A stretch of 64,000 nt of DNA from Patescibacteria group bacterium (GCA_041659045.1 JBAZZB010000002.1:21427-85426), one strand, 5' to 3'. Counted from the first letter of the stretch, positions 33,700 through 45,895 are shown. Notes: generated from the letters alone by a model not told the origin. A program made the numbers and translations.

Positions 33700-33814
33700 A
33701 TGAGACTCCCTTGCAAATACCAATTTGTCTCGTAACGGGTTGATTCGGAAGCTACCAGAAAAAAGGCTATACGTCAAGGTGCAGGATAAGAAAAACCCTC
33801 GCCGCGCGGCGGGG

Positions 33815-35344
33815 TTATGGAGTTGTCAGGACATCGATACTGAGCTCTTCGAGAGCCAAGTCGACGTCGCTTGGCGTATCGTCTTGAATCCCGTGCTTCT
33901 TGAGCAGTAGGAGACCTTCGTCTTGATCGGCGCATTCTTCGAACGGCTTCGAGAAGTCGGCCGCGTTCGTGCGCGCGTGGCGGTATTCGTGGTTCACGAC
34001 CACCATGAGCCAGCGCGTCGAACGATACATCTTTTTCTTGATGTAGATTCCGAGCGAGGTGCCGTCACCGGTCTTGAGCAAGAAGCCTTCGATCATGGCA
34101 AGTTCGCCAACAAGCGACTCGAACGGGTAGATAGGTAGCGACACGTCAGGATGCTCGAGCCGCATGGCGTCGAACACCAATCGCGCGCGAGCCTTCTCTG
34201 CTTCGTCGAGTTCAACGACCTTGAAGGTCGTGCCTTCGATCATCTTCGGCGCAAAGTCGTTCGCTTCCGCCACGCCGCAGCGCTTGAGAAAGCTGCGGAG
34301 CGTCGGAGAGGTCACGATGATCGGCTTCTTGCCGAGCGAGGAACGCACGTACTCGTCGCCGAAGCCGGGATTCGACATGACAGCTTCAGCGCCGTACATC
34401 GCGTGCCAAGCCGCGCGCCACGTCTCCTCGCCAATGATCTCGTCGAGATACAGGGCATAGGAAAGCGCGTGCTCTTCGAACGGCGCTTTGCCGTCCTGGA
34501 TCGCGCCGAGAATCGGCAGAAGCACGCCCTGATCGAGCTTGGAGCTGAGCATGGTGCCCATCCACTGATAGATCTCGGACATGTTGGCGAAGACGCGCTC
34601 TTCCGTCAGCAGCCCCTCGGTATCGAAGCTGTAGTCGAAATGCGAAGCGTCGGCGCCGTCCTTCGAACAGTAGGCCAGGGTGCCGTGCGCAAAGAGCCGC
34701 GTGGCTCCCTCTTCCGACTTCGGAAAGACGCGCATGACGATTCCTTGCTGACCACTGACCACGCGATGCACCGCGGGCGTACCGGAGAGCCACTTGAAGT
34801 AGCGAGCCGGGTGCCGCATGAGCACTTCGTAGTCGGCGGTCTTGCGGATGTAGACCGCATGCTGTCCTGCCGGCATCCAATACAACTTCTCGCACTCGGT
34901 CATCTCCGGACCCTTCGGGTCGTTCCCGCGGGCATTGTTCATGTACTCGCGCCAGATCGGAAACTCGGTGAGAGGATCGTCACCGATCGCGTTACTCCAG
35001 TTCTTGTAGGTCGTGTCAACGCTAAACGGCATCGGCACGTCGGTCTCAACACCATCCTTCGGATGGATCACGATCACGTACTGATTGAACCCTTCATCGA
35101 TGCTCGAGGGACGCGCTTCGTAGCGCAGGCAGTATTGACCCGCCTGGTCAGAAGAGACCACTCGTACGTCGATACCGGCCCGCAGCGCGACCAACGGCGC
35201 GATTTTTGCGCCAGACTTGAAGATGCTGTGCGGGTTCGTGCGATCGACGTCGGAACCCTCATCGGAAAGACCGAAAACAAGTAGGCGATTTCGCGGGCAG
35301 AACCCGCTGTTCGCGATGCGAATCCAGACGGTTTCCTTGCCCAT
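33815..35344 (-). CDS. large cytoplasmic protein with C-terminal HExxH motif (putative zinc metallopeptidase)
   Basis: AAGGAG RBS plus 6 nt before the ATG at 35344. 509 aa with no signal peptide; a single HEYRH within LMVVVNHEYRHARTNAADF near the C-terminus and an acidic tail. Confidence 0.55.
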   Translation of the reverse strand: MGKETVWIRIANSGFCPRNRLLVFGLSDEGSDVDRTNPHSIFKSGAKIAPLVALRAGIDVRVVSSDQAGQYCLRYEARPSSIDEGFNQYVIVIHPKDGVETDVPMPFSVDTTYKNWSNAIGDDPLTEFPIWREYMNNARGNDPKGPEMTECEKLYWMPAGQHAVYIRKTADYEVLMRHPARYFKWLSGTPAVHRVVSGQQGIVMRVFPKSEEGATRLFAHGTLAYCSKDGADASHFDYSFDTEGLLTEERVFANMSEIYQWMGTMLSSKLDQGVLLPILGAIQDGKAPFEEHALSYALYLDEIIGEETWRAAWHAMYGAEAVMSNPGFGDEYVRSSLGKKPIIVTSPTLRSFLKRCGVAEANDFAPKMIEGTTFKVVELDEAEKARARLVFDAMRLEHPDVSLPIYPFESLVGELAMIEGFLLKTGDGTSLGIYIKKKMYRSTRWLMVVVNHEYRHARTNAADFSKPFEECADQDEGLLLLKKHGIQDDTPSDVDLALEELSIDVLTTP

Positions 35345-35412
35345 GACGTACTCCTTGTGTCGTGGTGGTGGAAAGGCCTACGTATTGACGCTAGCATTCC
35401 TCCTAAAAACCA

Positions 35413-35841
35413 TCAACCAGCGACCGTAATAGCGCGTGCATCAGCACCACGGTGCGTCATGCGTACCGTAATCATCTTTTTGGGAAGCATCGTTTGAATG
35501 CGATCGGCCCACTCAACAAGTACAACCGTGTCTGGGCGACCGAGGTATTCCGTGAGACCAACAGCGCTCAGTTGCGCGACATCACCGCGATAGGCATCGA
35601 CGTGTAAAAAAGCTTTAAGTGCTCCGCGTTTCGTGAGCGGATATTCTTGCATCAAAATGAAGGTCGGGCTCTGCACCCGCTTCTTGATACCGAGTGCCTT
35701 GGCAAGCGCTTGCGCAAACGTCGTTTTGCCAGCGCCAAGGTTTCCATAGAGGGCGATCACCTCTCCCCCGCGCAGCCGGGTGGCAAGTTGCTTGGCGACC
35801 TCAGCCGTTTCTTTCGGCGACGTTGTGACAAACTTTTTCAT
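35413..35841 (-). CDS. tsaE: tRNA t6A biosynthesis ATPase TsaE
   Basis: P-loop GNLGAGKTTF and the YjeE fold; 142 aa. Confidence 0.85.
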   Translation of the reverse strand: MKKFVTTSPKETAEVAKQLATRLRGGEVIALYGNLGAGKTTFAQALAKALGIKKRVQSPTFILMQEYPLTKRGALKAFLHVDAYRGDVAQLSAVGLTEYLGRPDTVVLVEWADRIQTMLPKKMITVRMTHRGADARAITVAG

Positions 35842-35842
35842 A

Positions 35843-36865
35843 TCACTTCAAACCGAGTTCCCACACAGGGTCGGCCAACATGCCTTTCCAGGGGTCCGAC
35901 TTCTTTTTCGACAAGCGGAAATACCCGGCCATGGCAATCATCGCCGAATTATCGGTGCAGTACTCAAGGCCGGGAATGACAGCTTCTGTCTTCGGCAATT
36001 CTTTTTTAACCGCAGCTGCGAGGTGTTCGCGAAGCATCGTGTTGGCCGCGACTCCGCCCGCCAAAAAAACGGTTTTTGCTTTCTTCGCCTTGGCGGCTCG
36101 AATTGTTTTCACGACGAGCGTTTCAACGACAGCGGCTTGAAAGGACGCGCAAACGTCGTTCACATCCTGCGCAGACCACTCCTTCTTGCGTTGAAGCGTG
36201 TAGAGAACGGCGGTTTTGAGCCCCGAGAAACTAAAATCAAAATTCGCTTGGTTGAGAAGCGGGCGCGGAAACGCGAACTTCGTGGGGTCGCCGAGTTCGG
36301 CGCGTTTCGAAACGGCCGGGCCTCCTGGATAACCGAGCTCAAGCATCTTCGCGACCTTATCGAACGCCTCCCCCGCTGCGTCGTCGAGCGTCGAACCGAT
36401 GCGTTCGTATTTGCCGAATCCCTTCATCACGACGAGCTCCGTGTGACCGCCCGAAACAACCAGCACCAGTGCCGGGAACGCATACGCGGAGGTGATCTTT
36501 TTATTGATCCAGTTGGCGGCGATGTGTCCCTCGATATGATTCACTCCTACAATCGGTAATTCCCAACCATACGCCAACGCGCGTGCGAAGTCGGTACCGA
36601 CGCGCAGCGAGGTAATGAGTCCGGGTCCGCGCGTGACAGCAATGCCGTCCAAATTTTTCCGTGTCACGCCGAGTTCATCGATTAAAAGAGGTAGGGTTTC
36701 AACATGCAGACGAGCGGCAACTTCTGGCACGACACCTCCGTACTCGGCGTGCTTCAGGATTTGCGTGGCCGTCAGGTGCTTTTCAATCCGAGCAATGCCC
36801 TTGCTCACATTGAGCAGGGCAACCGAGGTTTCGTCGCAGGATGTTTCGATACCGAGGATGCGCAT
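35843..36865 (-). CDS. tsaD: tRNA N6-adenosine threonylcarbamoyltransferase TsaD
   Basis: MRILGIETSCDETSVALL… Kae1/TsaD family with HxxxH metal site; the stop is 1 nt before the tsaE start. Confidence 0.95.
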   Translation of the reverse strand: MRILGIETSCDETSVALLNVSKGIARIEKHLTATQILKHAEYGGVVPEVAARLHVETLPLLIDELGVTRKNLDGIAVTRGPGLITSLRVGTDFARALAYGWELPIVGVNHIEGHIAANWINKKITSAYAFPALVLVVSGGHTELVVMKGFGKYERIGSTLDDAAGEAFDKVAKMLELGYPGGPAVSKRAELGDPTKFAFPRPLLNQANFDFSFSGLKTAVLYTLQRKKEWSAQDVNDVCASFQAAVVETLVVKTIRAAKAKKAKTVFLAGGVAANTMLREHLAAAVKKELPKTEAVIPGLEYCTDNSAMIAMAGYFRLSKKKSDPWKGMLADPVWELGLK

Positions 36866-36967
36866 GGAGATTGATGTCTTCGATCCTTGATACTAGACCA
36901 AAATCGTAAAGCCTTCAAGGGCGGGAGCCTTAGGCGGCCAGCGTGTTTTATTGTTACACTGAGACAT

Positions 36968-37399
36968 ATGACCTCATCCTGGCTTTGGCTTCCGCTCGCA
37001 CTCTTGTCTGCTTTTTTCGCGGCGCTCATTGCGATCTTCGGCAAGATCGGCCTTTCACGCGTCGACACGACCACCGCCACGATGCTGCGCGCCATGATCA
37101 TGTTTTTGGTGCTCCTTGCCGTCGTGCTGTTCAGCGGAAAACTTTCTTCCGTGAACGCTTTTACCGGCAAGCAGTTTTTTTGGATCGTGCTGGCCGGCAT
37201 CGCCGGAGCGTTGTCGTGGCTCTTCTACTTCTGGGCGCTCAAAGTCGGTAAAGCTTCCCAAGTCGCACCCGTCGATCGCCTTTCTGCTATATTCGTCGTC
37301 ATCTTTGCAGCGCTCTTCTTAAGCGAGGCTGTCGGTTGGAAAACCGTTGTTGGCAGCGCCCTCATGGTACTTGGTGCCATCTTCGTCGCGCTTGGATAA
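36968..37399 (+). CDS. small EamA-like (DMT superfamily) membrane transporter
   Basis: MTSSWLWLPLALLSAFFAALIAIFGK… has four TM helices, one EamA half. The first 27 codons of ORF 36887.. are unlikely to be translated. Confidence 0.7.
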   Translation: MTSSWLWLPLALLSAFFAALIAIFGKIGLSRVDTTTATMLRAMIMFLVLLAVVLFSGKLSSVNAFTGKQFFWIVLAGIAGALSWLFYFWALKVGKASQVAPVDRLSAIFVVIFAALFLSEAVGWKTVVGSALMVLGAIFVALG

Positions 37400-37722
37400 A
37401 AAAGGCGTCCCGAAAGTTCGGGACGCTTGTCATTCCGTCGCATCAAGGAGACGCGGGTTGCTTTGCGCGAGCTTGTAAGCCGCACGCTTGGACGCAGGAT
37501 AGCGACGCATGATCTCTTCTGCGCCCACCACTCGCCAGACATCCTCTCACGCGTGTAGTCCCAGACCTCCTGGTTGTAGCCGCGGAGAATCTCCTCCCTT
37601 TCGAGATCGACAGTTTCGGCGTCGGGCACGAGCCCGCCGTCGGGTGAACCCGGCTGATCGTCAGCCGGAACGCACGCGAAAAGCGTGAGGAAGAAGAGAA
37701 TGAAAAGAAAACGGTACGGCAT
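37225..37722 (-). pseudogene. possible degenerate secreted/lipoprotein gene overlapping EamA 3' end antisense
   Basis: MPYRFLFILFFLTLFACVPADD… looks like a signal/lipobox, but the frame then runs 175 nt antisense through the convergent EamA gene and its terminator with shadow-like composition. It is either a short real N-terminal peptide followed by read-through, or a decayed gene. Confidence 0.25.
37403..37430 (+). terminator. rho-independent terminator
   Basis: GGCGTCCCGAAAGTTCGGGACGC hairpin followed by TTGTCATT. Confidence 0.55.
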
Positions 37723-37809
37723 CAGTGCCTCCCTGTTGGCCAAGCCAACGGTTCAGGATAGGCGTAAATAAGCGAAAAGTCAATGTAGTCCAGTCGCGAC
37801 CGACGTGGC

Positions 37810-37838
37810 TTGACGAATACCGGCTTTTCCTCTAAATT
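37810..37838 (+). promoter_or_regulatory. sigma70-like promoter for tRNA-Glu
   Basis: TTGACG, 17 nt, TAAATT, about 75 nt upstream of the tRNA 5' end. Confidence 0.45.
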
Positions 37839-37912
37839 AGCCATGTTCAATATACGAGGCCTCATCCTTCTTCGCTAAAGCTACGAAGGACACGTCGTCT
37901 CAAAAAGTACTT

Positions 37913-37987
37913 GGCCTCATCGTCTAACGGTTAGGACGGCTCCCTTTCACGGAGCAAATAGGGGTTCGATTCCCCTTGGGGCTACCA
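37913..37987 (+). tRNA. tRNA-Glu (anticodon TTC), CCA encoded
   Basis: Acceptor GGCCTCA/TGGGGCT (two G-U pairs), D-arm GTCTAACGGTTAGGAC, anticodon stem GCTCC/GGAGC with loop CTTTCAC, T-arm AGGGGTTCGATTCCCCT, then ACCA. The layout matches canonical tRNA-Glu. Confidence 0.8.
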
Positions 37988-38024
37988 TCAAAACACCCGC
38001 CGAATAGGCGGGTGTTTTGTATTC
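37980..38024 (+). repeat. direct repeat L: last 8 nt of tRNA-Glu plus its terminator hairpin (GGCTACCATCAAAACACCCGCCGAATAGGCGGGTGTTTTGTATTC)
   Basis: Exact 45-bp identity with 40612..40656. The hairpin ACACCCGCC-GAAT-AGGCGGGTGT plus T-run also serves as the tRNA terminator. Confidence 0.8.
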
Positions 38025-38130
38025 CGAAGTCTGCCTGTCCCTTTGGTACCAGGTACCGTTATCCGATAATTATGGTGCGTAAATATGTCCCATAAATTGC
38101 TATTCTGTCCCGACACCCACACGCATCATG

Positions 38131-38193
38131 CAGATATTCTGCTAGTGGGACTCGGGGGTACCATCCCAAAATCCGCCCAAATGGCGGATTTTG
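38131..38193 (+). repeat. intergenic repeat family copy A (CAGATATTCTGCTAGTGGGACTCGGGGGTACCATC plus hairpin)
   Basis: Shares CAGATATTCTGCTAATGGGACTCGGGGTCTACCAT plus a GC hairpin and T-run with copies at 39942..40007 and 41465..41534. Confidence 0.6.
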
Positions 38194-38291
38194 TGTTTCA
38201 TGGTAGCTGCGATAGTTGACGTGAATTCAGCACACCTGTAAGTTTGCGCTGGCTCAAACAAACAACCCGGGCCATGAAAAGGAAGTGGTAG

Positions 38292-39122
38292 ATGCGTTTT
38301 TCCCTACGGATTCTATTCGTCGTTCTTCTGGGAAGCGTGCCGCAGGCTTGTGTACTCGAATCAGACGATGATGCTGCCGCGAACGATGATCTCGGAAGTA
38401 CGGAGCAGGCACTGTCGAGCGATCCGCGTACACGAGTCGTTGAGGAGGCATCCTTCGCAATGACGGGCAACTACGCCGCGTACACAAGCAGTAACTGGCC
38501 GACGGCGACAACCCTCGCCGGGTACTACTACACATCGACGGACACTGGCGCGTGGAGCTCTTTGATCAACTCCTCGAGCTATTCCGCGTATGGCTACACG
38601 GGCTTCTACGTGTCGTGCATGCGGTATCGTTCTGAAGGGCACCTGCCCTCACCCTATACCAATTGCTATCTATCGACATCGAACGGGTACGGATCGTTCG
38701 AGATGCCCTATTACACCTGCCAAGGATACTGCCCGAGCACGAAGATGCGTGGCGGCCAGTGCAAGCCATTCATGAACCTCATTGCGTACCGCTCCGGCCA
38801 GTACCATGGAGCGAACTGGTCTTTCAAGGCATTGCCGTCCGATAGTGCCATTTCAAACTGGAGCACAGCAGCGGATCAGATGCCGTACGCAACGTACTCC
38901 AACATCCTTCCCGGCGATCTCCTTCGCCGCCCCTATGGCCACGCAGCCATTGTGGTACGGAAGGTCAGCAGTTCACAAATCGTCGTCTTCGACTCGAACT
39001 GGGTCGGCAACGGTGACGGCGACGAGGTTGTTGGATCGCATACACTCGGCTTCTCCGGAACCGGGAACAGCAACTTGGGTAACTATCGGGTACTCAAGTG
39101 CGTGTATAACGGCGGTTGCTAG
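38292..39122 (+). CDS. secreted CHAP-domain peptidoglycan hydrolase
   Basis: Signal peptide MRFSLRILFVVLLGSVP, a Tyr/Ser/Thr-rich middle, and a C-terminal CHAP-like Cys…His pair (GGQCKPFMNLIAYRSG … PGDLLRRPYGHAAIVV). Confidence 0.7.
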   Translation: MRFSLRILFVVLLGSVPQACVLESDDDAAANDDLGSTEQALSSDPRTRVVEEASFAMTGNYAAYTSSNWPTATTLAGYYYTSTDTGAWSSLINSSSYSAYGYTGFYVSCMRYRSEGHLPSPYTNCYLSTSNGYGSFEMPYYTCQGYCPSTKMRGGQCKPFMNLIAYRSGQYHGANWSFKALPSDSAISNWSTAADQMPYATYSNILPGDLLRRPYGHAAIVVRKVSSSQIVVFDSNWVGNGDGDEVVGSHTLGFSGTGNSNLGNYRVLKCVYNGGC

Positions 39123-39218
39123 CTGGCAGCGCTGTATGATTCTGTGGGGAGGGTCTGTGCCCTCCCCCTCTTTTTTCTCTACTGCTATACTTCTTTACGA
39201 AGAAACCTTACATATCCT

Positions 39219-39878
39219 ATGAAAAAAACGATTCCGGTAACACAAGCAGTGACTGCCCTCGCCCTACTTGGTATCGGCATTCTTGTTGGTGTGTATTTTG
39301 CATCAAAAAATTCAGTTTCGACGGGCGGCGCAGAGGCGGGCACGAACTCTTTTGAAGTCGCCAACTTGCCGAACAACAGTTTTGACGCGACGGAATCTAT
39401 CCCCGAAACCTCTGTAAAAGTTTCTTACCCAAAAAATGGCTTTTACGGACTAGGCGTAAAGACCGTGCAAGAAGGCGCGACTCCCAACGAAGCTATCCCT
39501 TTTCTCGGAGGAGTCGCTATTCTTCCGAATGTCAGTTCTTTGGAAGACCGGCCTTTCTCTTTAAGTGTCGGTGCCTATAAAAAGAGTGGCGCTGACACGT
39601 TGGAAGGATCGATCGTTAAAGGCGAGGTGAGCGGGGTTAAGATCGGTAAGCAGGAAATGAATGGAACATACCTGACCGTAAATAACCACCGGTACTTCGT
39701 TTATAAAGTTTTGGGGAGTCCGACACAGACTGCCTGGCATGCCGTATCATTCGGCAAAAAGGAGGTCATCATTGTGAGTTTCGAGTTTGTGCCCGGTAGT
39801 GATTCGGATTCTTACACCGCCTTCCGCAACAACGACCAACTTTTCTTTCAGATCCTTTCCCACATTTCCTTTGAGTAG
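39219..39878 (+). CDS. membrane-anchored hypothetical protein
   Basis: The ATG at 39219 starts MKKTIPVTQAVTALALLGIGILVGVYFA (N-terminal TM anchor), followed by an extracytoplasmic domain of unknown family. The ORF-track start at 39144 is less likely. Confidence 0.55.
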   Translation: MKKTIPVTQAVTALALLGIGILVGVYFASKNSVSTGGAEAGTNSFEVANLPNNSFDATESIPETSVKVSYPKNGFYGLGVKTVQEGATPNEAIPFLGGVAILPNVSSLEDRPFSLSVGAYKKSGADTLEGSIVKGEVSGVKIGKQEMNGTYLTVNNHRYFVYKVLGSPTQTAWHAVSFGKKEVIIVSFEFVPGSDSDSYTAFRNNDQLFFQILSHISFE

Positions 39879-39941
39879 GCAGGGTGCTGTGGGCTTGCAG
39901 CCAACAGCCAAAGCAGCTCACCTCCCCGCATCCATGCTCCG

Positions 39942-40007
39942 GAGATATTCTGCTAATGAGACCCGGGGTCTACCATCGCCGAATCCGCCCAACAGGCGGA
40001 TTTTGCG
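39942..40007 (+). repeat. intergenic repeat family copy B
   Basis: GAGATATTCTGCTAATGAGACCCGGGGTCTACCATC plus hairpin AATCCGCC-CAACA-GGCGGATT plus T-run. Extended similarity to copy C begins ~45 nt upstream (from 39897). Confidence 0.6.
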
Positions 40008-40060
40008 TTTTGTCGTTTGGTTCTATTTCATCCATACTATCTTTATAGAAACCCCTGAAC

Positions 40061-40609
40061 ATGAAAAAACCTTTTGCCATCATCGGCTGTGCCGTCGTCA
40101 TCGTTGCCACCTACTTCTTTGGCTACTTCTCCTCCAAAGAAGCATCTCGTATCGAGTTTGCCCAAATAGACTGCACCCCGGGCAGAGCCGCCACCGGCTC
40201 CTCCAAACTTTTCGGAAAAATCGTGAAGATCAACGAAAACAGTGTAGCGTTGCGCTTAGTCGAGTGGGTGGAGGGTGAAGATAATCAAGAGCAGGCTGCG
40301 CTTGAAACTGAGCGCTGCACGCTTGAGCGCATCGAAAAGGATGAGTGCGTGCCGAATAATTTCTTCTTGCGCGAAACGCAAAAAACTTTGCAGCTGCCGA
40401 TTGCTGCAAATCTGTCTGTCCAGGTTCTCTCGAATGGGGCAAATGGAGAGTTCAAGCAAGATGAGCAACAGAACACACTTCCTCGTGAGGTTAGTCTGAC
40501 TGATCTGCAGAAGATGTTGGAGATTGGCGAGTTCGCTATCTATACGCCCTTCGTCTTTACTACTACGAATGGAGCCATTACCAAGATTCAGGAGCAGTAC
40601 ATTCCGTAA
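40061..40609 (+). CDS. membrane-anchored/secreted hypothetical protein (182 aa)
   Basis: N-terminal hydrophobic anchor MKKPFAIIGCAVVIVATYFFGYF; low-GC codon usage; no domain recognised. Confidence 0.55.
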   Translation: MKKPFAIIGCAVVIVATYFFGYFSSKEASRIEFAQIDCTPGRAATGSSKLFGKIVKINENSVALRLVEWVEGEDNQEQAALETERCTLERIEKDECVPNNFFLRETQKTLQLPIAANLSVQVLSNGANGEFKQDEQQNTLPREVSLTDLQKMLEIGEFAIYTPFVFTTTNGAITKIQEQYIP

Positions 40610-40611
40610 CC

Positions 40612-40656
40612 AGGCTACCATCAAAACACCCGCCGAATAGGCGGGTGTTTTGTATT
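40612..40656 (+). repeat. direct repeat R (exact copy of the tRNA-Glu 3' end plus terminator)
   Basis: GGCTACCATCAAAACACCCGCCGAATAGGCGGGTGTTTTGTATTC is identical to 37980..38024. Confidence 0.8.
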
Positions 40657-40748
40657 CAGAATTGTTACCTGGCACTTAGGTACCAAGTGCCGTTTTTTTT
40701 GGATGATTATGCTACCATTACGGTCATAAACACTGAGAACAAGGTCAT

Positions 40749-41360
40749 ATGGCCCTCTCTGCATATCATCAGAAATACGCCTCAAAGCCGGACGAAGAAA
40801 TCGCCCGCCGCGCAAAAGCGAAGGAGGAAGAACTCCGGCGCATTTTTGATACCGCCCCGCTCCGTTCATCGGTAACGCCCATACGCGTGGCCATCATGGG
40901 ATGCGGTGAAAAACGGTTTATCCAACACCACCGCGACATCTTCCAAACACTTCTTGCTCGCCCCGTTGAAATCACGACGTTCGATCTTGTCACTGAGCAC
41001 CTTGCCGGTGAAACCCGCGTCTTTCAACACGACGTAACTCAACCGCTCCCCGATGCGCCCTACGACGTCACCTACGCGCATGTCCTTTTGAAGTTCATCC
41101 CGACGGACAAGCAGCTCGATGTGCTTCTGAACTCTTATACTGCATTGCGCGAAGGAGGCGTGGCTATCCATGTCTTTGATACCGAGGAGCTTTCAGCAAC
41201 ATCAACAACGCTTCCTGACGAGCTATACGCTGTTCCGCTCGAACGCTGGAAGAAGGAACTAGACGAACGCGGCATCAAACACGCAGAGGTTGCTTGGGAA
41301 ATCGAGGGTGTCCTACCGATGCCGCTCGAAGGCAGCGCACTGATGCTGTTGAAGGAGTGA
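40749..41360 (+). CDS. class I SAM-dependent methyltransferase (putative)
   Basis: VAIMGCGEKRF resembles the glycine-rich motif I, and the downstream acidic motif II-like FDLVTEH fits a Rossmann-fold methyltransferase; 203 aa. Confidence 0.55.
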   Translation: MALSAYHQKYASKPDEEIARRAKAKEEELRRIFDTAPLRSSVTPIRVAIMGCGEKRFIQHHRDIFQTLLARPVEITTFDLVTEHLAGETRVFQHDVTQPLPDAPYDVTYAHVLLKFIPTDKQLDVLLNSYTALREGGVAIHVFDTEELSATSTTLPDELYAVPLERWKKELDERGIKHAEVAWEIEGVLPMPLEGSALMLLKE

Positions 41361-41464
41361 ACGAATATCCATCTCATCCGACCATCTTCGTTCCCCATTG
41401 GCACCTAGGTACTAGGCACCAACACAGCAGCCAAGGCAGTCCACCTGCCCGCGTCCAAACCACG

Positions 41465-41534
41465 CAGATATTCTGCTAATGGGACTCGGGGTCTACCATA
41501 AAACGACACCGCTAAAAGGCGGTGTTTTCGTTTT
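41465..41534 (+). repeat. intergenic repeat family copy C
   Basis: CAGATATTCTGCTAATGGGACTCGGGGTCTACCAT plus hairpin AAAACGACACCGC-TAAAAG-GCGGTGTTTTCGTTTT. Confidence 0.6.
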
Positions 41535-41621
41535 GAAATGACCCCTCTGCACCTTGACATTTCTTTTTTTTCTGCCATACTGCAGATCCTCATCGCGTCC
41601 CAACATCGTACGGAGGCTGTC

Positions 41622-42611
41622 GTGGACAATAACGTCGTGGTCTTTCCAAGAGACTTCACCCCAGCGCACACCCTACTGAACCTCGATACTCGGATCATCT
41701 GCGGTGATCTGACTTCGATGGAAACCGCCGGCGACGATGTCGCTGAGGTTGCCATGGGTTCTGACCAACTGCGTCTCAGCTTGCGAGGCTTCAAGGTCAT
41801 GAACCCACCGAGGCCCGCCCGATCGAGCGGCTCCAGCGCCTTGTACCTGGCGAGCGGCAAGGAAAAGCGGGACGGACTCCTGCTGCAGTACCTGCCGCCG
41901 CACAGCACAACGTCACTGCACTACCACGCCTGTACCCTCGAGACGTTCCACTTGCTGGCAGGCCGCGCCGCCGTCAGGACACCATGGGGAACGGAAGAGC
42001 ACCTCGACGATGGTCGCAGGAGCTTCACCAATCCGATGTTCGTGCCGCACCAGGTCGTGACCGGCGAATCCGCGTCGATCATCTTGCTCGAGATGGGTCT
42101 GCCCACCGAGTCCACGGGTATGAAGGATCACTTCTACGTGGACACGGACACGGCGATCGACATCCACTCCAAGGGCGAGTATCCGTCGTCGGCGTTGAGC
42201 AACTTCGGCGCACACGCCTTCTCGCTCGACGGGATCGAGTGCGCGTCGATGGAGGGATTCCTCCAAGCACTCAAGGAGCGTGACCAGGATGTGCAGCCCG
42301 GCATCTGCGCACTCACTGGCGGCGCAGCCAAGCGACGTGGTGAGGAGCTGAGCCAAGCGCGTGGGCCTTCGGACCCGCTCTACTGGCAAGGCCAACCCAT
42401 CAATCGCCTTTCGGCGACGTACCAAGAACTCCTGGATCGAGCCTATGCGGAGCTGGCCAGGAACAGCAACTTCCAGGCGGCGCTGCGGGCCACGGGCGAC
42501 GCCTTGCTGGTCCACAGCATCGGCAAGAAGACGCCGGAAACCACCATCCTGACGGAGCTGGAACTCTGCTCACGCCTGATGCGGATCCGCCATTCCTTGC
42601 CGCAGTCATGA
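41622..42611 (+). CDS. cupin - NADAR (YbiA-like N-glycosidase/DUF1768) fusion protein
   Basis: GGAGG plus a 5-nt spacer before GTG at 41622. A TTGACA/17/ATACTG promoter lies inside the ORF-track N-terminal extension (41538..). Cupin motif SLHYHACTLETFHLL. The C-terminal NADAR signature is LSNFGAHAFSLDGIECASMEGFLQALKE. Confidence 0.65.
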   Translation: MDNNVVVFPRDFTPAHTLLNLDTRIICGDLTSMETAGDDVAEVAMGSDQLRLSLRGFKVMNPPRPARSSGSSALYLASGKEKRDGLLLQYLPPHSTTSLHYHACTLETFHLLAGRAAVRTPWGTEEHLDDGRRSFTNPMFVPHQVVTGESASIILLEMGLPTESTGMKDHFYVDTDTAIDIHSKGEYPSSALSNFGAHAFSLDGIECASMEGFLQALKERDQDVQPGICALTGGAAKRRGEELSQARGPSDPLYWQGQPINRLSATYQELLDRAYAELARNSNFQAALRATGDALLVHSIGKKTPETTILTELELCSRLMRIRHSLPQS

Positions 42612-42618
42612 ACACCTT

Positions 42619-42652
42619 GAAACCGGTCTGACTCATCAGATCGGTCTTTTAT
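42619..42652 (+). terminator. rho-independent terminator
   Basis: GACCGGTCTGA-CTCA-TCAGATCGGTC followed by TTTTATT. Confidence 0.5.
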
Positions 42653-42844
42653 TATGCGCTGCAGACGGTTGTAAAAATTCATACACGGCCCCATTGCTCC
42701 ACCTATCGTGGCCGTTGACGCTTTTCGTTGACCAATGGGCCTGCCTACTGTTGAAAGTATTGACAAAAAGGCGGAAGCGTAGTACTTTCCGCGTCTGGGT
42801 TTGGACAAACCGACCTGGTCGGAGACTTACCCATGGAGGACCTC

Positions 42845-43291
42845 ATGCGTAGCACCTTCGTTAGCGGTTCCCTTGCGTTCCTGTTCGGCCTGGCCTGCAT
42901 CCTCGGCAACGCCGGCGCAGACAGCAACCACAGCGCCCCGAGCAACCACTCGGGCACCTTCCTCGCCGATCCGGCGAGTCTGATCTACGACGGCACGTCC
43001 GTCGTCATGATCGGGATCATGAACTCGCCGAGCTGCGGCCAGTTCACGACCGAAGACCAGACCTGCAGCGGCGACGCCGTCGACTCCGACGGGGACGGCA
43101 TCTTCGATGCCAGTTCCTCGGAGCGTCGCATGGGCGAGCTCGACTGCTCGGACCCCCGGCTCACGGGTTGCGAGGAGTGCCTGGGCACGGTGCGCATCTG
43201 CTGCCCGTCGCAGGAGTGCACCGTCAGCAACTGCCCCGGCAAGAGCGGGTACTGTCCCAACGACAAGGGCGGAGGCAGTCACTGCTGCTGA
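42845..43291 (+). CDS. Cys-rich secreted small protein (148 aa, 14 Cys)
   Basis: GGAGG plus 5 nt before the ATG at 42845. Signal peptide MRSTFVSGSLAFLFGLACILGNAGA. C-terminal CxxC-rich segment (CSDPRLTGCEECLGTVRICCPSQECTVSNCPGKSGYCPNDKGGGSHCC). A TTGACA/17/TACTTT promoter lies upstream. Confidence 0.6.
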   Translation: MRSTFVSGSLAFLFGLACILGNAGADSNHSAPSNHSGTFLADPASLIYDGTSVVMIGIMNSPSCGQFTTEDQTCSGDAVDSDGDGIFDASSSERRMGELDCSDPRLTGCEECLGTVRICCPSQECTVSNCPGKSGYCPNDKGGGSHCC

Positions 43292-43414
43292 TGCGCAGGC
43301 GGCCTCATCTATACCCCTTCCACATACGCCCCAGGCGTATTTTTTTTGTCTTCCTTTCAAAGTACAGTCGTGGTGTAATTGCCACGATGACTCTATTTGG
43401 CTAACTTCTGCGAT

Positions 43415-44935
43415 ATGCAGCCTCAAACGCACGCCGAGCAAGCACCGCTTACGCATCTGGACCGCACCAAGCTTCTTTGGAGCATCGGGCTGTCGCTCTT
43501 CTGGGTGATCTTCCTTTGGGGCTTTTTTGGCCACGGACCTTACGCGCTGGGCATGAACGCATTCCTCTACCTTGCAGGAATGGTGGCGCTCTTTTTGTGG
43601 AGCATGAAGCGTGAAGGGCTTTCTCTTAGGAAAAATGCCGCCTGGATCGCACCGATCTGCCTGATCGTGCTGAGCTACGCCATCTTCGACAACCCGTTCC
43701 TCAAAATGGTGAGCATCCTCGTGCTCCCGACGACATTCGCCCTCTTCTATAACGAGGCTTTCCTCACCGTGCACGGCCGAGCGCGCTGGAACAGTAAAAT
43801 GATCGAGGCTCTTGTTTGGCGCTCTCTTTCCATCATCACGCATATCCGCAAGGCAGGCAGCCTCATCGAAAGCTTGGTGATGCGGACGAGGAAAAATCCC
43901 AGCACGGCCAAGCGCATTACCCTTGGCGTCTTTCTTTTCCTGCTCATCGCCGTCGTCATCGTAATTCCTCTCCTTTCTTCGGCGGATGCGGAGTTCGCAG
44001 CCGCGATAGGATTCGTGAACGTTTGGATCCAAAAGCTGTTTTCCACGACCCTCTTCGGAAAAATCCTTCTCTTCTTCCTGCTTTCCATCGGCACGATTTC
44101 CGCCCTGCTTGCATGGACAAGGCCCTCGGCGCACGCGGCGACCGAAACGGAAACGAAACACGTCGATCCGATCGTCGCCGGCATCGTGCTCGGTGGCGTG
44201 CTCGCCCTTTACGTGCTTTTCCTCTGGATCCAGCTCGGCCACATGTGGGTCGGAAAGCTTCCAGTCGAGTTCAGCGAGACCGAGCGTCTGGTGAAAGACG
44301 GATTCTGGCAACTCTTCTGCCTGACCATCATCAACATCCTCTTCGCCTTCACGACCTACCGGAAAACCGTGCCGGCGGTGCAACGCCTGCTGACCGTCTT
44401 CGTCGTCGCTTCTTTCCTGCTGCTTGTTTCCGCCGGTTACCGGATGGCGCTCTACGTGACGTATTACGGCTTGAGCTACGAAAAATTCTTCGCTTCGTAC
44501 ACGGTGGCGTTCTGCGCCATTCTGCTGCTCTGGCTCGTCTCTCGCCTCTTCACGCATGCCCGCGCTGATGTTGTGCGCTTCCCTGTGATGCTTTTCATCT
44601 GGATGTACGCCGTGCTGACCGTCATGCCGGTCGAGCAGATCATCCTCCGTTCCAACGTTGCCCTGTCGCAGCGAGAAGGTTCGCAGATCCGATTGTTTGA
44701 GCTCACGATGCTCTCTCCCGACGTGCTCGGCTTGGTGCAAAAATACCAGAAAGAAGGCGCGCTCGTAGAAAAAAACCCTTTCTACTCGCGCGAAATGGCC
44801 GAACTCGTACCCGAAGAGGGAGCCTATTCGAAGCCGAACTTCGACTGGAATCCATGGATCAAAGATCGTTCCGCGATTGTTTCGGAGAAAGCTTGGTATG
44901 AACTGAACCTCATGAACCTGATCACAAGACCTTGA
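43415..44935 (+). CDS. polytopic membrane protein (~10 TM, hypothetical)
   Basis: 506 aa dominated by hydrophobic helices. ATG at 43415; the ORF-track TTG at 43397 is an alternative start. The 707-aa minus-strand ORF 42827..44950 is its antisense shadow. Confidence 0.65.
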   Translation: MQPQTHAEQAPLTHLDRTKLLWSIGLSLFWVIFLWGFFGHGPYALGMNAFLYLAGMVALFLWSMKREGLSLRKNAAWIAPICLIVLSYAIFDNPFLKMVSILVLPTTFALFYNEAFLTVHGRARWNSKMIEALVWRSLSIITHIRKAGSLIESLVMRTRKNPSTAKRITLGVFLFLLIAVVIVIPLLSSADAEFAAAIGFVNVWIQKLFSTTLFGKILLFFLLSIGTISALLAWTRPSAHAATETETKHVDPIVAGIVLGGVLALYVLFLWIQLGHMWVGKLPVEFSETERLVKDGFWQLFCLTIINILFAFTTYRKTVPAVQRLLTVFVVASFLLLVSAGYRMALYVTYYGLSYEKFFASYTVAFCAILLLWLVSRLFTHARADVVRFPVMLFIWMYAVLTVMPVEQIILRSNVALSQREGSQIRLFELTMLSPDVLGLVQKYQKEGALVEKNPFYSREMAELVPEEGAYSKPNFDWNPWIKDRSAIVSEKAWYELNLMNLITRP

Positions 44936-45061
44936 CCGTTCGTCTCGCACAGCGTACGCTCCGCACGAACTTGTATCTCAGACGTTGAGCGCTGAACGGA
45001 ACGTCTTCGTTTTCGCTACCCGTCGACACTTCGATTTCAGAGGACAGGTGCAATCCCTGCC

Positions 45062-45098
45062 CGGTTCGCAAAAACACCCGCCGCAAGGCGAGTGTTTT
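45062..45098. terminator. bidirectional terminator
   Basis: AAAACACCCGCCGCAAGGCGAGTGTTTTTT, the same hairpin family as the tRNA-Glu terminator. Confidence 0.5.
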
Positions 45099-45120
45099 TT
45101 CTTGGAATTGCTCTCTCCTA

Positions 45121-45444
45121 TTACAAGGCGAGGAAATGCCAAAGGAAGTATCCCGTGAGCGCGGCGGCTCCTGCGAAGGAAGTCGCGACCAGGAGATGCA
45201 CGGAGCGCGCGGCTTGGTCGGCTCGTACAGGCGTGGCGCTTCGCGCGAAGAAGGCGAAGAGAAGCATGTAGATCAGAACCGAGGCAACGCTCTTCGTCAC
45301 CCAGTGGTGACCGGTCATCGAGGCGAGCGCGGTCTTGAGTGGAGCGGACATCTCGGCAGCAATCGTGATCGCAACGACGAAGACGATAACGAGTGTCGCG
45401 GCGCGCGCGGAGGCGCGGACGGTGTTTTCGGGAAGCATAGACAT
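45121..45444 (-). CDS. small membrane protein (107 aa)
   Basis: Three hydrophobic helices; starts 4 nt after the stop of 45449..45895 and looks operonic with it. Confidence 0.5.
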   Translation of the reverse strand: MSMLPENTVRASARAATLVIVFVVAITIAAEMSAPLKTALASMTGHHWVTKSVASVLIYMLLFAFFARSATPVRADQAARSVHLLVATSFAGAAALTGYFLWHFLAL

Positions 45445-45448
45445 GCGT

Positions 45449-45895
45449 TCAGACCGCGCCCCAGCGGGCGGCGGCGGAAATGATGTATCCCATCAAGCCG
45501 AGGAACAGGCCGAGCGCGGCAAGACTGCCGGTAAGCCACATCGTCGACTTGCGAAGCTCGGGCGAAGTCGCGCGCGCCGCCAAAATTGCGGTGAACGCCA
45601 TCGGGATCATGAAGAGGAAGATGTGCTCTTTCGCTTCCATGACGACAGCATGCGCCCATGGAGCCATGCCGGCCTTGATGATCGGCTTCACGGTCGGACC
45701 GTAGAAGACGACGTAATAATAACCACCGAGCAACCAACTGAGCGCAAAAGACACAAAACCGACAGTCGCGACAAAAGCGCGGCGACGCGCGTTTTCGACT
45801 TTCGCCGCCAACTCTCCGAGCAACCACAGGAACGCGTCGATGCCAATGATGGCAAAGGCGAGGTGTAAACCGACGAGGATGGGTTTAACAGGCAT
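45449..45895 (-). CDS. membrane protein (148 aa)
   Basis: Four hydrophobic helices (MPVKPILVGLHLAFAIIGIDAFLWLLGELAAK…); it may form a split membrane protein with the downstream ORF. Confidence 0.5.
   Translation of the reverse strand: MPVKPILVGLHLAFAIIGIDAFLWLLGELAAKVENARRRAFVATVGFVSFALSWLLGGYYYVVFYGPTVKPIIKAGMAPWAHAVVMEAKEHIFLFMIPMAFTAILAARATSPELRKSTMWLTGSLAALGLFLGLMGYIISAAARWGAV

What the first reader, a model, noticed from the sequence alone, without database searches (positions are those of the whole stretch)
37980..41540. tRNA-Glu 3' end is an insertion hotspot: exact 45-bp direct repeat brackets an integrase-less 2.6-kb islet; further tRNA-3'-end-like repeats punctuate a cassette array
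The last 8 nt of tRNA-Glu (GGCTACCA) plus its entire terminator hairpin (45 bp) recur exactly at 40612..40656, forming att-like direct repeats around 38025..40611. The bracketed genes (CHAP peptidoglycan hydrolase and two membrane-anchored hypotheticals) have lower GC than the backbone. The element has no integrase.

Downstream, a degenerate copy of the tRNA T-arm/acceptor (TTCGTTCCCCATTGG at ~41387) and three copies of a ~70-115-bp intergenic repeat (38131..38193, 39942..40007, 41465..41534) separate further single-gene cassettes. Each repeat is CAGATATTCTGCTAATGGGACTCGGGGTCTACCAT plus a terminator-like hairpin resembling 'tRNA end plus terminator'. Those cassettes encode a methyltransferase and a cupin-NADAR fusion.

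This looks like serial capture of small cargo cassettes at one tRNA, or a satellite-type element mobilised in trans, rather than a classical integrase-bearing island.
Basis: seen in the sequence. Interest (0 to 1): 0.8.

Follow-up and report, generated by a model that had tools for sequence, protein, structure and literature searches.

The report
Recombinase-less gene-cassette array at tRNA-Glu
Just downstream of a tRNA-Glu gene in an uncultured Patescibacteria genome sits a string of four small gene cassettes, each closed by the scar of a serine-integrase attachment site, which marks this tRNA end as a place where relatives stack and swap cassettes even though no integrase is encoded in this 64-kb window.

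Summary
An exact 45-bp repeat lies at 37980-38024 and 40613-40657, and three copies of a ~80-nt repeat (R1) end at 38163, 39975 and 41498. The "2.6-kb islet" is not one element. The region holds five junctions of one design: left arm, CTACCA, then a terminator hairpin. They delimit cassettes of 176, 1812, 645 and 878 bp.

In relatives, the same tRNA-Glu CCA end is the attachment site of islands encoding a large serine recombinase (LSR). That gene reads antisense into the tRNA. The island's far end (R2) encodes the ~33-aa tail the LSR would carry when excised. R1 looks like a diverged relic of such a tail.

Across 16 loci, left and right arms reassort exactly at the core: identity is 0.12-0.47 to the left and 0.69-1.00 to the right. 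The 45-bp repeat is two copies of a conserved terminator module (T45) that recurs at junctions in six other contigs.

No recombinase is encoded in the 64-kb window. The window's R1 copies carry a core deletion, a stop codon or an altered end. Current mobility is therefore unproven. The closest analogue is the staphylococcal SCC/ψSCC composite island. Verdict: real, a new variant of a known kind, moderately interesting.

The parts
37913..37987 (+). tRNA-Glu(UUC). Its 3' end ...GGGGCTACCA is the left arm and core of junction j0.
   Evidence: ARAGORN; Rfam tRNA 61 bits; conserved in 12 relatives.
37980..38024 (+). 45-bp repeat copy 1: core GGCTACCA plus terminator module T45.
   Evidence: Exact repeat. 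T45 recurs after tRNA-Glu, R1, R2 or partial-tRNA arms in L002, L089 (twice), L091, L099, L100 and L101.
38025..38084 (+). Remainder of the T45-type cassette head, including CCCTTTGGTACCAGGTACC (a degenerate acceptor-like or palindromic relic). This cassette carries no gene.
   Evidence: The same 24-nt string follows T45 in L091, and a variant follows it in L089.
38085..38163 (+). R1-A, right end of the empty 176-bp cassette. Its core GGGTACCA has lost one base.
   Evidence: nhmmer E 1e-13; alignment.
38164..38291 (+). T_A module: terminator hairpin 38167-38193 plus a conserved leader containing TTGACG-N17-TAAGTT.
   Evidence: Terminator scan; 82% identical to the L001 module that precedes a non-homologous hydrolase gene.
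38292..39122 (+). 276-aa putative lipoprotein with a weak CHAP-like C-terminal region (cargo).
   Evidence: Pfam CHAP E 0.0046 and NCBIfam PcsB CHAP region E 0.004, both below cut-off; no PDB sequence match.
39219..39878 (+). gene2: 219-aa protein with an N-terminal membrane anchor, no family assignment (cargo).
   Evidence: No Pfam, PADLOC or NCBIfam hit. Two paralogues lie next to a gene3 homologue in the distant locus L087.
39897..39975 (+). R1-B, right end of the 1812-bp CHAP-like plus gene2 cassette. Core GTCTACCA.
   Evidence: Its minus-strand tail frame is interrupted by a stop.
39976..40060 (+). T_B module: hairpin 39981-40003 plus the leader of gene3.
   Evidence: 97-100% identical over 32 nt to the module that directly follows tRNA-Glu in L008 and L089 and follows R1 in L001; 88-91% to the copy that follows R2 in L091.
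40061..40609 (+). gene3: 182-aa membrane-anchored protein of a family widespread in Patescibacteria (cargo).
   Evidence: 28 homologues. AF2 model pLDDT 76 with no PDB fold match. Found in non-tRNA contexts in L084, L087, L088, L102 and L105.
40613..40657 (+). 45-bp repeat copy 2: junction j3. Its left arm has been reduced to CCAGGCTACCA (R1 deleted), followed by T45.
   Evidence: Orthologous gene3 cassettes in L001, L008, L089 and L091 keep a full ~140-nt R1 here.
40670..40692 (+). Second hairpin (TGGCACTTAGGTACCAAGTGCC) plus T-run of the T45-type cassette head.
   Evidence: Terminator scan. The flank after the 45-mer is about 85% like that of copy 1.
40749..41360 (+). 203-aa putative SAM-methyltransferase (cargo; weak assignment).
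   Evidence: Pfam Methyltransf_11 E 0.0038, below cut-off. No homologue in any fetched locus other than the same-sample contig.
41420..41498 (+). R1-D, right end of the 878-bp methyltransferase cassette. Core GTCTACCA.
   Evidence: Tail peptide ...PLAEYLRGLDAGRWTALAAVLVPST*.
41499..41537 (+). T_D module: hairpin 41505-41526. It is a T45-family variant and occupies the position that T45 holds in front of the NADAR gene in L002.
41622..42611 (+). NADAR-domain protein. The longest ORF starts at 41538, but the L002 orthologue begins at the equivalent of GTG 41622. This is the first gene shared with the backbone of relative L002.
   Evidence: Pfam Phage_30_3 E 7.8e-48; 73% identical orthologue directly after R2|T45 in L002.

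Best explanation
Positions 37,980-41,540 are the tRNA-proximal part of a tandem array of recombinase-less gene cassettes. The array was assembled by site-specific recombination at the CCA end of tRNA-Glu.

Anatomy. Every unit begins immediately after a CTACCA core with a terminator hairpin (T module: T45, T_A, T_B or T_D). It then carries zero to two genes. It ends with an R1 module that again finishes in CTACCA. This gives five junctions, j0 to j4, at 37987, 38163, 39975, 40620 and 41498.

What relatives show. The same core is the crossover site of 6-8-kb islands that encode a large serine recombinase (LSR):
- The LSR gene lies head-on against the tRNA. Its last 12 codons are the antisense of the tRNA T-arm and acceptor.
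- The ~11 codons before them double as the tRNA's terminator hairpin.
- The island's far end (R2) carries the ~33 codons that complete the LSR reading frame when the element is excised.

Inferred. R1 is a diverged relic of such a tail, and each R1|T junction is therefore an attP-like or attR-like scar. New units probably enter at the tRNA core and push older ones distally. Units can probably be lost or exchanged by recombination between any two cores.

Status in this genome. No recombinase is encoded within 64 kb. One R1 has a 1-nt core deletion, one has a stop codon and one has an altered C-terminus. The array is therefore either a fossil or mobilisable only in trans.

The 45-bp repeat. It exists because j0 and j3 both carry the conserved T45 module. 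RecA-mediated or recombinase-mediated exchange between them would loop out 2,633 bp (three cassettes) and leave tRNA-Glu|T45-methyltransferase.
For: Shown:
1. Five junctions of identical design in the window, with start-to-start spacing 176/1812/645/878 bp.
2. In total 38 such junctions in 16 loci. Left arms (tRNA-Glu, R1, R2, partial tRNA) and right arms (T45, T_A, T_B, T_D, T_L1, LSR-P', others) occur in many combinations.
3. For junctions that share a right arm but differ in left arm, identity is 0.12-0.47 in the 32 nt left of CTACCA and 0.69-1.00 in the 32 nt right of CCA. The breakpoints therefore lie at the core.
4. The T_B-gene3-R1 cassette (in L089 headed by a T_A-like hairpin) lies directly after tRNA-Glu in L008, after R1 in the window and L001, and after R2 in L089 and L091. 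It has five different right neighbours.
5. LSRs of 509-510 aa (PF00239 + PF07508 + PF13408) abut tRNA-Glu in L002, L006 and L010. Remnants occur in L005 and L009, and displaced copies in L011 and L012.
6. In L002 the island is followed by GGGCTACCA plus a T45-type terminator plus the NADAR orthologue.
7. R2 reads as a ~33-codon ORF in the LSR frame. Seven copies show no indels, and codon-position divergence is 0.395/0.287/0.478.
8. Of 120 family members, 95 end in tRNA-antisense tails. Several (P0050, P0059, P0060, P0077, P0116, P0135) end in R2-like tails such as ...WNQI..ELKEW.LF....
9. R1 shows no stable conserved RNA fold (-3.2 kcal/mol). It does show strong minus-strand codon periodicity (264:118:90) and encodes the conserved peptide ...VSLSEYLRGLDTGRWAALAAGL(Q/R)VVA*. 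By eye this peptide aligns with the R2 tail; the alignment was not tested statistically.
10. In L011 an R1-like arm directly abuts an LSR gene and supplies its tail.
Against: - No recombinase is encoded in the window. None has been shown to act on R1|T sites.
- In 8 of 10 R1 copies, the reading frame across the core (GGT AGA) is offset by 1 nt from the frame of the known LSRs (GTA GCC).
- No protein among 5.8 billion shares three 5-residue words with a chimeric query carrying the R1 tail. The owner of the R1 tail is therefore unknown, and the R1-R2 homology rests on position, length and a short peptide pattern.
- By textbook knowledge, canonical LSRs recombine only attP with attB. Building an array needs integration at attL-like sites.
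- The right arms share little beyond being hairpins.
- No empty-site allele, circular junction or within-population polymorphism was found.
- The same-sample Logan contigs (X 32294-37983, I 37995-40657, Y 40628-50304) are what a k=31 de Bruijn graph gives for any 45-bp repeat.
- Only about ten related genomes were available.
Confidence: 0.6

Rival explanations
1. 38025-40612 would be one integrase-less integrative element (a satellite or CIME-like unit). The 45-bp repeats would be its attL and attR, created when a circle carrying a copy of the tRNA end plus terminator integrated. A tyrosine integrase encoded elsewhere, or RecA acting through the 45-bp homology, would have done this.
For: - An exact 45-bp direct repeat includes the tRNA 3' end.
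- Interior GC is lower.
- The Logan contig L081 equals 2633 + 30 bp, as expected for a circle at k=31.
- L001 likewise has its own tRNA terminator repeated at the distal end of a syntenic block.
Against: - The interior contains two further complete junctions of the same design (38163 and 39975).
- Its three sub-units occur separately, and in other orders, in L001, L008, L089 and L091.
- T45 is nearly invariant between genomes and sits at internal junctions elsewhere, so exact identity needs no recent duplication.
- The left 8 nt of copy 2 can be the end of a deleted R1 (L089 has an R1 ending GGGGGGCTACCA).
- The Logan contig pattern is equally expected from graph branching.
- No tyrosine integrase is encoded in the window.
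Confidence: 0.15
2. R1 is conserved because it is expressed. It could be a small minus-strand ORF (about 40-47 aa, spanning terminator module and R1) or a 3'-UTR or regulatory element attached to these genes. On this view the cassette pattern reflects gene duplication and homologous recombination between such elements, not site-specific recombination.
For: - There is strong codon periodicity and a conserved peptide even among copies that lack any recombinase.
- T_A, T_B, T_D and T45 read as homologous peptides in the same frame (K-R-K-I-R-L-L-G-G-F-G-D-G and similar; and manual translation).
- In L001, L008 and L089, R1 mostly follows paralogues of one gene family, gene3.
Against: - There is no conserved start codon, and the upstream open length is variable.
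- In the window, R1-B has an in-frame stop, R1-D an altered end and R1-A a core deletion.
- R1 also follows unrelated genes (gene2, the methyltransferase) or no gene at all.
- The consensus RNA fold is negligible.
- Homologous recombination cannot create tRNA|T_B from R1|T_B with only ~10 nt of shared core.
- The R2 arms have the same placement and are demonstrably LSR gene ends.
Confidence: 0.1
3. This is ordinary local evolution. The tRNA terminator and a downstream intergenic segment were duplicated by slippage, unequal crossing-over or gene conversion. The repeats have no role in mobility.
For: - Every tRNA in the window is followed at once by a hairpin.
- A T45-like hairpin also closes an unrelated convergent gene pair at 45070-45100.
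- The flanks of the two 45-mers are about 85% alike, like diverged paralogues.
Against: - It does not explain the combinatorial reassortment of arms exactly at CTACCA across 16 loci.
- It does not explain the presence of LSR islands at the same core.
- It does not explain the coding-tail nature of R1 and R2.
Confidence: 0.08
4. This is an assembly artefact. On this view the islet was mis-joined into the contig through the shared 45-mer.
For: The window comes from a metagenome-assembled genome. In the short-read graph the islet is a separate contig bounded by the 45-mer.
Against: - L001, L089 and L091 are independent assemblies with the same architecture and partly syntenic cassettes.
- The Logan contigs are 100% identical to the window over 18 kb and compatible with its order.
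Confidence: 0.02

Closest known systems
Staphylococcal cassette chromosome composite islands (SCCmec, ACME, ψSCC) at the 3' end of rlmH/orfX
   Same: - Large serine recombinases (CcrAB/CcrC) insert elements at the 3' end of a conserved gene.
- Several elements stack in tandem, each demarcated by short direct repeats of the integration-site sequence.
- Some units lack recombinase genes and carry only cargo, for example ψSCC and the ars or CRISPR units bounded by direct repeats (PMC7029136).
   Different: - The target here is a tRNA CCA end, not a protein gene.
- Units are much smaller (0.18-1.8 kb against several kb or more).
- The recombinase family is a different LSR lineage, whose own 3' end spans attP.
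- No recombinase is encoded in this window.
- Mobility has not been demonstrated.
Tandem genomic-island arrays and cis-mobilisable elements (CIMEs) at tRNA/tmRNA genes
   Same: - Repeated integration at one tRNA 3' end gives arrays separated by att repeats.
- attP halves reassort (PMC9580842).
- Integrase-less derivatives flanked by att sites can be mobilised in trans (CIME concept; my own knowledge).
   Different: - Those systems are typically driven by tyrosine integrases, with identity blocks inside the tRNA.
- Here the only recombinases seen at the site are LSRs, and the shared core is ~6-10 nt at the very CCA end.
- Here each unit brings its own terminator for the tRNA.
Integrons (IntI, attI, attC cassettes)
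   Same: - An ordered array of mostly single-gene cassettes, each closed by a recombination-site-like repeat.
- There is one fixed entry point.
- The same cassette appears at different positions in different genomes.
   Different: - No IntI tyrosine recombinase is present.
- R1 does not fold into an attC-like hairpin.
- Cassettes appear to carry their own promoter-like leaders and terminators.
- The entry site is a tRNA end.
Integration-dependent immunity of mycobacteriophage BPs (attP inside a gene)
   Same: attP lies inside an open reading frame, so integration replaces the C-terminal ~33 residues. In BPs the virally encoded tail is an ssrA-like degradation tag (PMC4557955). Many R1 and R2 tails also end in hydrophobic-x-Ala.
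   Different: - In BPs the split gene is the repressor and the enzyme is a tyrosine integrase.
- Here the split gene is the serine recombinase itself, and the replacement tail is tRNA antisense.
- The degron function of the tail is only a guess.
- This feature is seen in relatives, not in the window.

Membership tests
LSR-delimited tandem cassette array (SCC-composite-island-like) | Units inserted at one conserved chromosomal site, each demarcated by direct repeats of the crossover core | tested here: met
   Five CTACCA-type cores at 37987, 38163, 39975, 40620 and 41498, all followed by a hairpin module.
LSR-delimited tandem cassette array (SCC-composite-island-like) | A large serine recombinase encoded in at least one unit of the array or genome | tested here: not met
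   No PF00239, PF07508 or PF13408 domain in the ~48 large window ORFs scanned, and no tblastn hit. The feature is met in relatives L002, L006 and L010 at the same tRNA. The rest of the 320-kb contig could not be read.
LSR-delimited tandem cassette array (SCC-composite-island-like) | Unit boundaries coincide with the recombinase crossover site across genomes | tested here: met
   Identity is 0.12-0.47 left of the core and 0.69-1.00 right of it for junctions sharing a right arm. The arms occur in many different combinations.
LSR-delimited tandem cassette array (SCC-composite-island-like) | Excision to a circle, or integration, actually occurs | not testable with these tools
   Only assembled contigs are available. 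The Logan contig boundaries are uninformative because an empty site or a circle shares all 31-mers with the filled site.
Integron | IntI-type tyrosine recombinase next to attI, with a common promoter | tested here: not met
   No Phage_integrase-type domain in the window.
Integron | attC sites: imperfect inverted repeats that fold as single-stranded hairpins | tested here: not met
   The R1 consensus fold is -3.2 kcal/mol, with 4 of 15 weak predicted pairs showing a compensatory change. Only the adjacent terminator is a hairpin.
Classical tRNA-integrated island (tyrosine integrase) | Integrase gene inside the element and a direct repeat that duplicates the tRNA 3' part | tested here: not met
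   The direct repeat is present but covers only 8 nt of the tRNA plus 37 nt of terminator. There is no integrase.
Integrase-less satellite / CIME mobilised in trans | att sites on both flanks recognised by a helper element's recombinase in the same cell | tested here: inconclusive
   att-like cores flank every unit, but no helper was identified. In the window R1-A has a core deletion, R1-B a stop and R1-D an altered end.
Structured RNA family (Rfam) | Match to a curated covariance model, or a conserved fold | tested here: not met
   Rfam finds only the three tRNAs at gathering score. R1 has no stable conserved fold.

The most novel reading that the evidence does not exclude
Patescibacteria of this clade may run an integron-like cassette system on a serine recombinase. 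The CCA end of tRNA-Glu would be the entry site. Recombinase-less cassettes would carry a portable attP made of the last ~42 codons of the recombinase gene (terminator hairpin, core and tail), and would be captured, stacked and shuffled in trans. The recombinase would sense its own state, because integration swaps its ~33-aa, possibly degron-like, tail for 12 tRNA-encoded residues.
Probability: 0.25. Interest if true: 0.85.

Novelty: new variant of a known kind. Interest (0 to 1): 0.6.

Why it matters
Patescibacteria (CPR) have tiny genomes and are thought to have few mobile elements, so how they acquire accessory genes is poorly understood. This locus shows a compact, rule-based way of stacking one- or two-gene cassettes at a tRNA end. 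The cargo is of the accessory kind:
- a secreted hydrolase-like lipoprotein and membrane-anchored proteins;
- putative methyltransferases;
- in relatives, deaminase, GNAT, NUDIX, YaaC-like and AbiEii proteins.

The locus also ties these cassettes to a large family of tRNA-targeting serine recombinases: 486 proteins with E <= 1e-30, of which the best 120 were examined. In this family the gene spans its own attP.

If the cassettes are mobilised in trans, this would be an integron-like system based on a serine recombinase. The tail swap would be a new example of integration-state sensing. LSRs with short, well-defined tRNA-end targets are also of practical interest as genome-engineering tools.

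If the array is only a fossil, it is still a clear record of serial integration that can be used to delimit islands in CPR genomes.

Tried and rejected
1. Circular-form evidence. The Logan contig carrying the three islet genes is 2663 bp, which equals 2633 + 30. The neighbouring contigs of the same run start and end at the same 30-mer or inside the tRNA, so this is ordinary k=31 branching. Rejected as proof.
2. Public-collection scans for the R1 core pattern gave 0 hits in JGI metagenome contigs and 0 in IMG/VR. A T45-junction pattern gave 3 metagenome contigs and 0 viral. An R2 pattern gave 0 viral. There is therefore no sign that these ends sit on known viral contigs.
3. R1 as a structured RNA. 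Rfam gave nothing, and RNAalifold gave -3.2 kcal/mol. Rejected.
4. R1 as a copy of the tRNA body. Only the last ~10 nt match, and no window site besides the tRNA matches the 25-nt tRNA 3' end with up to 3 mismatches. Rejected.
5. The T-arm relic at 41387 has p of about 0.02 uncorrected. Not relied on.
6. Search for an intact protein carrying the R1 tail. A chimeric 58-aa query found no candidate.
7. Defence-system annotation of the cargo with PADLOC gave no hits.
8. The gene3 fold has no PDB match at E <= 0.001. Its function remains unknown.
9. gene3 homologues in distant genomes (L084-L088, L102-L105) were examined for the repeat. None has it, so the repeat belongs to the locus and not to the gene family.
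10. A programmed frameshift to reconcile the R1 frame with the LSR frame was considered. There is no conserved slippery site, so it was not pursued.

Full report
1. THE OBSERVATION

tRNA-Glu(UUC) lies at 37913-37987. Its last 8 nt plus the following hairpin, 45 nt in all (37980-38024), recur exactly at 40613-40657.

Three copies of a longer repeat, here called R1, end at 38163, 39975 and 41498. They occur nowhere else in the 64 kb. Each R1 ends in G(G/T)(C)TACCA and is followed at once by a terminator-like hairpin.

Together with the tRNA end and the second 45-mer, this gives five junctions of one design: left arm, CTACCA, hairpin module. Their spacing is 176, 1812, 645 and 878 bp.

The bracketed 2.6 kb has lower GC, 0.514 against 0.576, rank 6 of 308. 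This is due to the two membrane-anchored genes.

No serine or tyrosine recombinase domain is found in about 48 large ORFs of the whole window. tblastn with the relatives' recombinase finds nothing either.

2. THE ORGANISM AND THE LOCUS IN RELATIVES

The flanking tsaD, tsaE and EamA genes identify relatives in Patescibacteria (Minisyncoccota/Paceibacteria) with 79-94% TsaD identity. The window's own proteins are listed as an NCBI MAG 'Patescibacteria group bacterium' on a 319,851-bp contig.

In all twelve relatives tRNA-Glu is conserved, but what follows it differs in every one.

- **L002, L006 and L010.** In L002 (a complete genome), L006 and L010, a 509-510-aa ORF starts at +34 inside the tRNA on the opposite strand. 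It carries the Resolvase, Recombinase and Zn_ribbon_recom domains of a large serine recombinase, LSR.
- **Other relatives.** L005 and L009 keep remnants of the LSR. L011 and L012 have it 7 kb downstream, behind a further CTACCA junction.
- **Right end in L002.** The L002 island ends 6.4 kb away at ...TTTCAGTGGTCCGGGCTACCA. A T45-type terminator and the orthologue of the window's NADAR gene follow directly.

The tRNA-Glu CCA end is therefore a true attachment site. The crossover lies within GGGCTACCA.

3. THE CASSETTE LOGIC

Further loci came from gene3 homologues and from a T45-junction scan.

**The richest example.** L089, a 12-kb contig, has tRNA-Glu followed by at least seven junctions of the same design. 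It has two kinds of left arm. One is R1, as in the window. The other, R2, is the same sequence type as the right end of the LSR islands.

**The junction table.** It lists 38 junctions in 16 loci. Left arms are tRNA-Glu, R1, R2 or a partial tRNA. Right arms are T45, T_A, T_B, T_D, T_L1, LSR-P' or others. They occur in many combinations.

**Position of the breakpoints.** For junctions that share a right arm but differ in left arm, identity is at background (0.12-0.47) in the 32 nt left of CTACCA. It is 0.69-1.00 in the 32 nt right of CCA.

**One cassette in several contexts.** The T_B-gene3-R1 cassette (in L089 headed by a T_A-like hairpin) illustrates this:
- it lies directly after the tRNA in L008;
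- it lies after R1 in the window and L001;
- it lies after R2 in L089 and L091;
- it has five different right neighbours.

Such precise, recurrent breakpoints with only ~6-10 nt of shared core are not what homologous recombination produces. They point to site-specific recombination.

4. WHAT THE REPEATS ARE

**R2.**
- Read on the minus strand in the frame NTG-GTA-GCC, R2 is a ~33-codon ORF (VARTTEIWNEIVADLKAWAAFAEDL...A*).
- Seven copies show no indels, and divergence is greatest at third codon positions (0.395/0.287/0.478).
- This is the same frame in which the integrated LSR reads ...SLL-VA-PRGIEPLSAP*, whose last 12 residues are tRNA antisense.
- In the excised form the LSR reading frame would therefore run through the core into R2.
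- The protein database agrees. Of 120 family members, 95 end in tRNA-antisense tails. Several others end in R2-like tails, such as P0060 ...LVPLIGKYWNEITADLKEWFLFGKDM...SVAA and P0077 ...LVPQVRNSWNQLIVELKEWQLF....

**R1.**
- It has no stable conserved RNA fold.
- It has an even stronger minus-strand codon periodicity, 264:118:90, which holds within subsets.
- It encodes G-R-(P/R)-(R/Q)-V-S-L-S-E-Y-L-R-G-L-D-T-G-R-W-A-A-L-A-A-G-L-(Q/R)-V-V-A*.
- By eye, this peptide aligns with the R2 tail: NEIVADLKA--WAAF against SEYLRSLDAGRWAAL. The alignment was not tested statistically.
- In L011 an R1-like arm directly supplies the tail of an LSR.
- In the R1 frame, my manual translation of the hairpin modules T_A, T_B, T_D and T45 also reads as related peptides, such as KRKIRLLGGFGDG (one search shows the open frames).
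- An R1|T junction thus looks like the last ~42 codons of a gene that contains an attP.

**What remains unexplained.**
- In 8 of 10 R1 copies the frame across the core is offset by one base from that of the known LSRs.
- There is no consistent start codon.
- No database protein carries such a tail.
- In the window, R1-A has lost a core base, R1-B has an in-frame stop and R1-D has an altered end.

5. THE 45-BP REPEAT RE-READ

T45 is not private to this genome. Versions of it, 72-100% identical over the first 32 nt, occur at the following places:
- after tRNA-Glu in L099;
- after R1 in L089 and L091;
- after R2 in L002, L089 and L101;
- after a partial tRNA end in L100.

The left 8 nt of copy 2 sit where the orthologous gene3 cassettes carry a full R1. 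The window's R1 has been deleted down to CCAGGCTACCA.

Beyond the 45 nt, the two flanks are only about 85% alike. The 'islet' is therefore three cassettes: an empty T45-R1 unit, T_A-CHAP-like-gene2-R1, and T_B-gene3.

These lie between two junctions that happen to carry the same conserved module. The block could still be looped out through them, but the exact repeat does not date an insertion.

6. CARGO

- The 276-aa protein is a probable lipoprotein with only sub-threshold CHAP similarity.
- gene2 and gene3 are membrane-anchored proteins of unknown function.
- gene3 belongs to a family widespread in Patescibacteria, twice next to nusA. gene2 paralogues sit beside a gene3 homologue in L087.
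- The gene3 AF2 model (pLDDT 76) has no PDB fold match.
- The methyltransferase call is weak. The NADAR domain is solid.
- In relatives, cassettes carry a deaminase, GNAT, YaaC-like protein, methyltransferase and NUDIX. The L002 LSR island carries AbiEii and an AAA_21/DUF4435 ATPase.
- PADLOC finds nothing in the window's cargo.

7. WHAT COULD NOT BE SHOWN

No empty site, circle or strain polymorphism was found. The same-sample Logan contigs break at the 45-mer exactly as a k=31 graph must. An empty site would share all k-mers with the filled one.

Scans of metagenome and viral collections yielded few or no additional copies.

8. COMPARISON WITH KNOWN SYSTEMS AND VERDICT

The nearest analogue is the staphylococcal SCC composite island. 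There, LSRs insert at the 3' end of a conserved gene, units stack in tandem separated by core repeats, and some units lack recombinase genes (PMC7029136).

Tandem island arrays with swapping of attP halves are also recognised (PMC9580842).

A gene that spans attP, so that integration changes its C-terminus, is known for the BPs repressor (PMC4557955). I found no description of this for a serine recombinase, or of such arrays in Patescibacteria. That library is incomplete, so absence of a paper is weak evidence.

The locus is not an integron: it has no IntI and no attC fold.

The mechanism is best described as a recombinase-less array of LSR-type att junctions at tRNA-Glu. This explanation has confidence about 0.6. 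Current mobility is unproven.

Noticed in passing
L002 7781-9307 (LSR), L006, L010; proteins P0029-P0148: A family of large serine recombinases was found: 486 proteins with E <= 1e-30, of which the best 120 were examined. The gene spans attP. Integrated copies end in about 12 residues encoded by the antisense of a tRNA T-arm and acceptor (...LVAPRGIEPLxxP and variants for other tRNAs). Non-integrated copies end in a ~33-aa tail (...WN(E/Q)I..(D/E)LK.W..F...), often finishing in hydrophobic-x-Ala. The terminator hairpin of the tRNA is itself coding sequence of the recombinase.
   Followed up: partly
window 38085-38163, 39897-39975, 41420-41498; L001, L008, L089, L091 R1 copies: R1 shows strong 3-nt substitution periodicity on the minus strand and encodes a conserved peptide. 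Its frame across the CTACCA core is 1 nt off the frame of the known LSRs. There is no conserved start codon, and no database protein carries the tail. Two copies (L089 at 2583, L091 at 3065) have different +1 insertions that restore the LSR/ATG frame.
   Followed up: partly
L081 (Logan SRR18595301_833841) = window 37995-40657: A 2,663-bp short-read contig equals the repeat period (2,633) plus k-1 (30), as a circular element would give. The neighbouring contigs show that this is also what plain graph branching gives.
   Followed up: yes
window 45070-45100: A T45-like hairpin (AAAACACCCGCCGCAAGGCGAGTGTTTT) lies between the convergent DUF4153 gene and a small minus-strand gene. It has no CTACCA core, and the surrounding stretch is conserved in L008 (85%). 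It may be an older junction or just a shared terminator type.
   Followed up: no
L100 (reverse complement) 1651-2110: Only about 345 bp separate tRNA-Glu from a displaced 15-nt tRNA end (CCCTTGGGGCTACCA) plus T45. The insert starts with an LSR-P'-like hairpin, so it looks like an almost completely deleted island.
   Followed up: no
L101 (reverse complement) 104-135 versus window 37988-38019: The loop of the T45 hairpin is inverted (TATTC instead of GAATA) while the stem is identical.
   Followed up: no
window 41538-42611: The annotated-length ORF (357 aa) probably starts later, at GTG 41622, as in the L002 orthologue (VNNDVVVFPRDF...). The N-terminal half has no Pfam match, so the 'cupin' label is unconfirmed. 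The C-terminal NADAR/Phage_30_3 domain is strong.
   Followed up: partly
L087 8566-10564; L105 8487-10869: In distant Patescibacteria, gene3 homologues sit just upstream of nusA. In L087 one is preceded by two gene2-family paralogues. This suggests that gene2 and gene3 form an old functional pair that this clade has copied into the tRNA-Glu array.
   Followed up: partly
L002 island (reverse-complement coordinates 13632-17635): The cargo of the LSR island is an AAA_21/AAA_15 + DUF4435 ATPase and an AbiEii-type nucleotidyltransferase. This is defence- or toxin-like content.
   Followed up: partly
window 9627-13043, 52193-57118, 61063-63983: Large surface-type proteins are encoded elsewhere in the window: a 1138-aa DUF5122 beta-propeller repeat protein, ice-binding-like and CBM96/PG-binding proteins flanking a sortase, and cohesin- and dockerin-domain proteins.
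   Followed up: no
window 9380-9445 and 13085-13145 (minus strand): tRNA-Lys and tRNA-Arg are also followed immediately after CCA by a terminator hairpin, but of unrelated sequence and without repeats. The hairpin-after-CCA design is general in this genome; the cassette array is specific to tRNA-Glu.
   Followed up: yes
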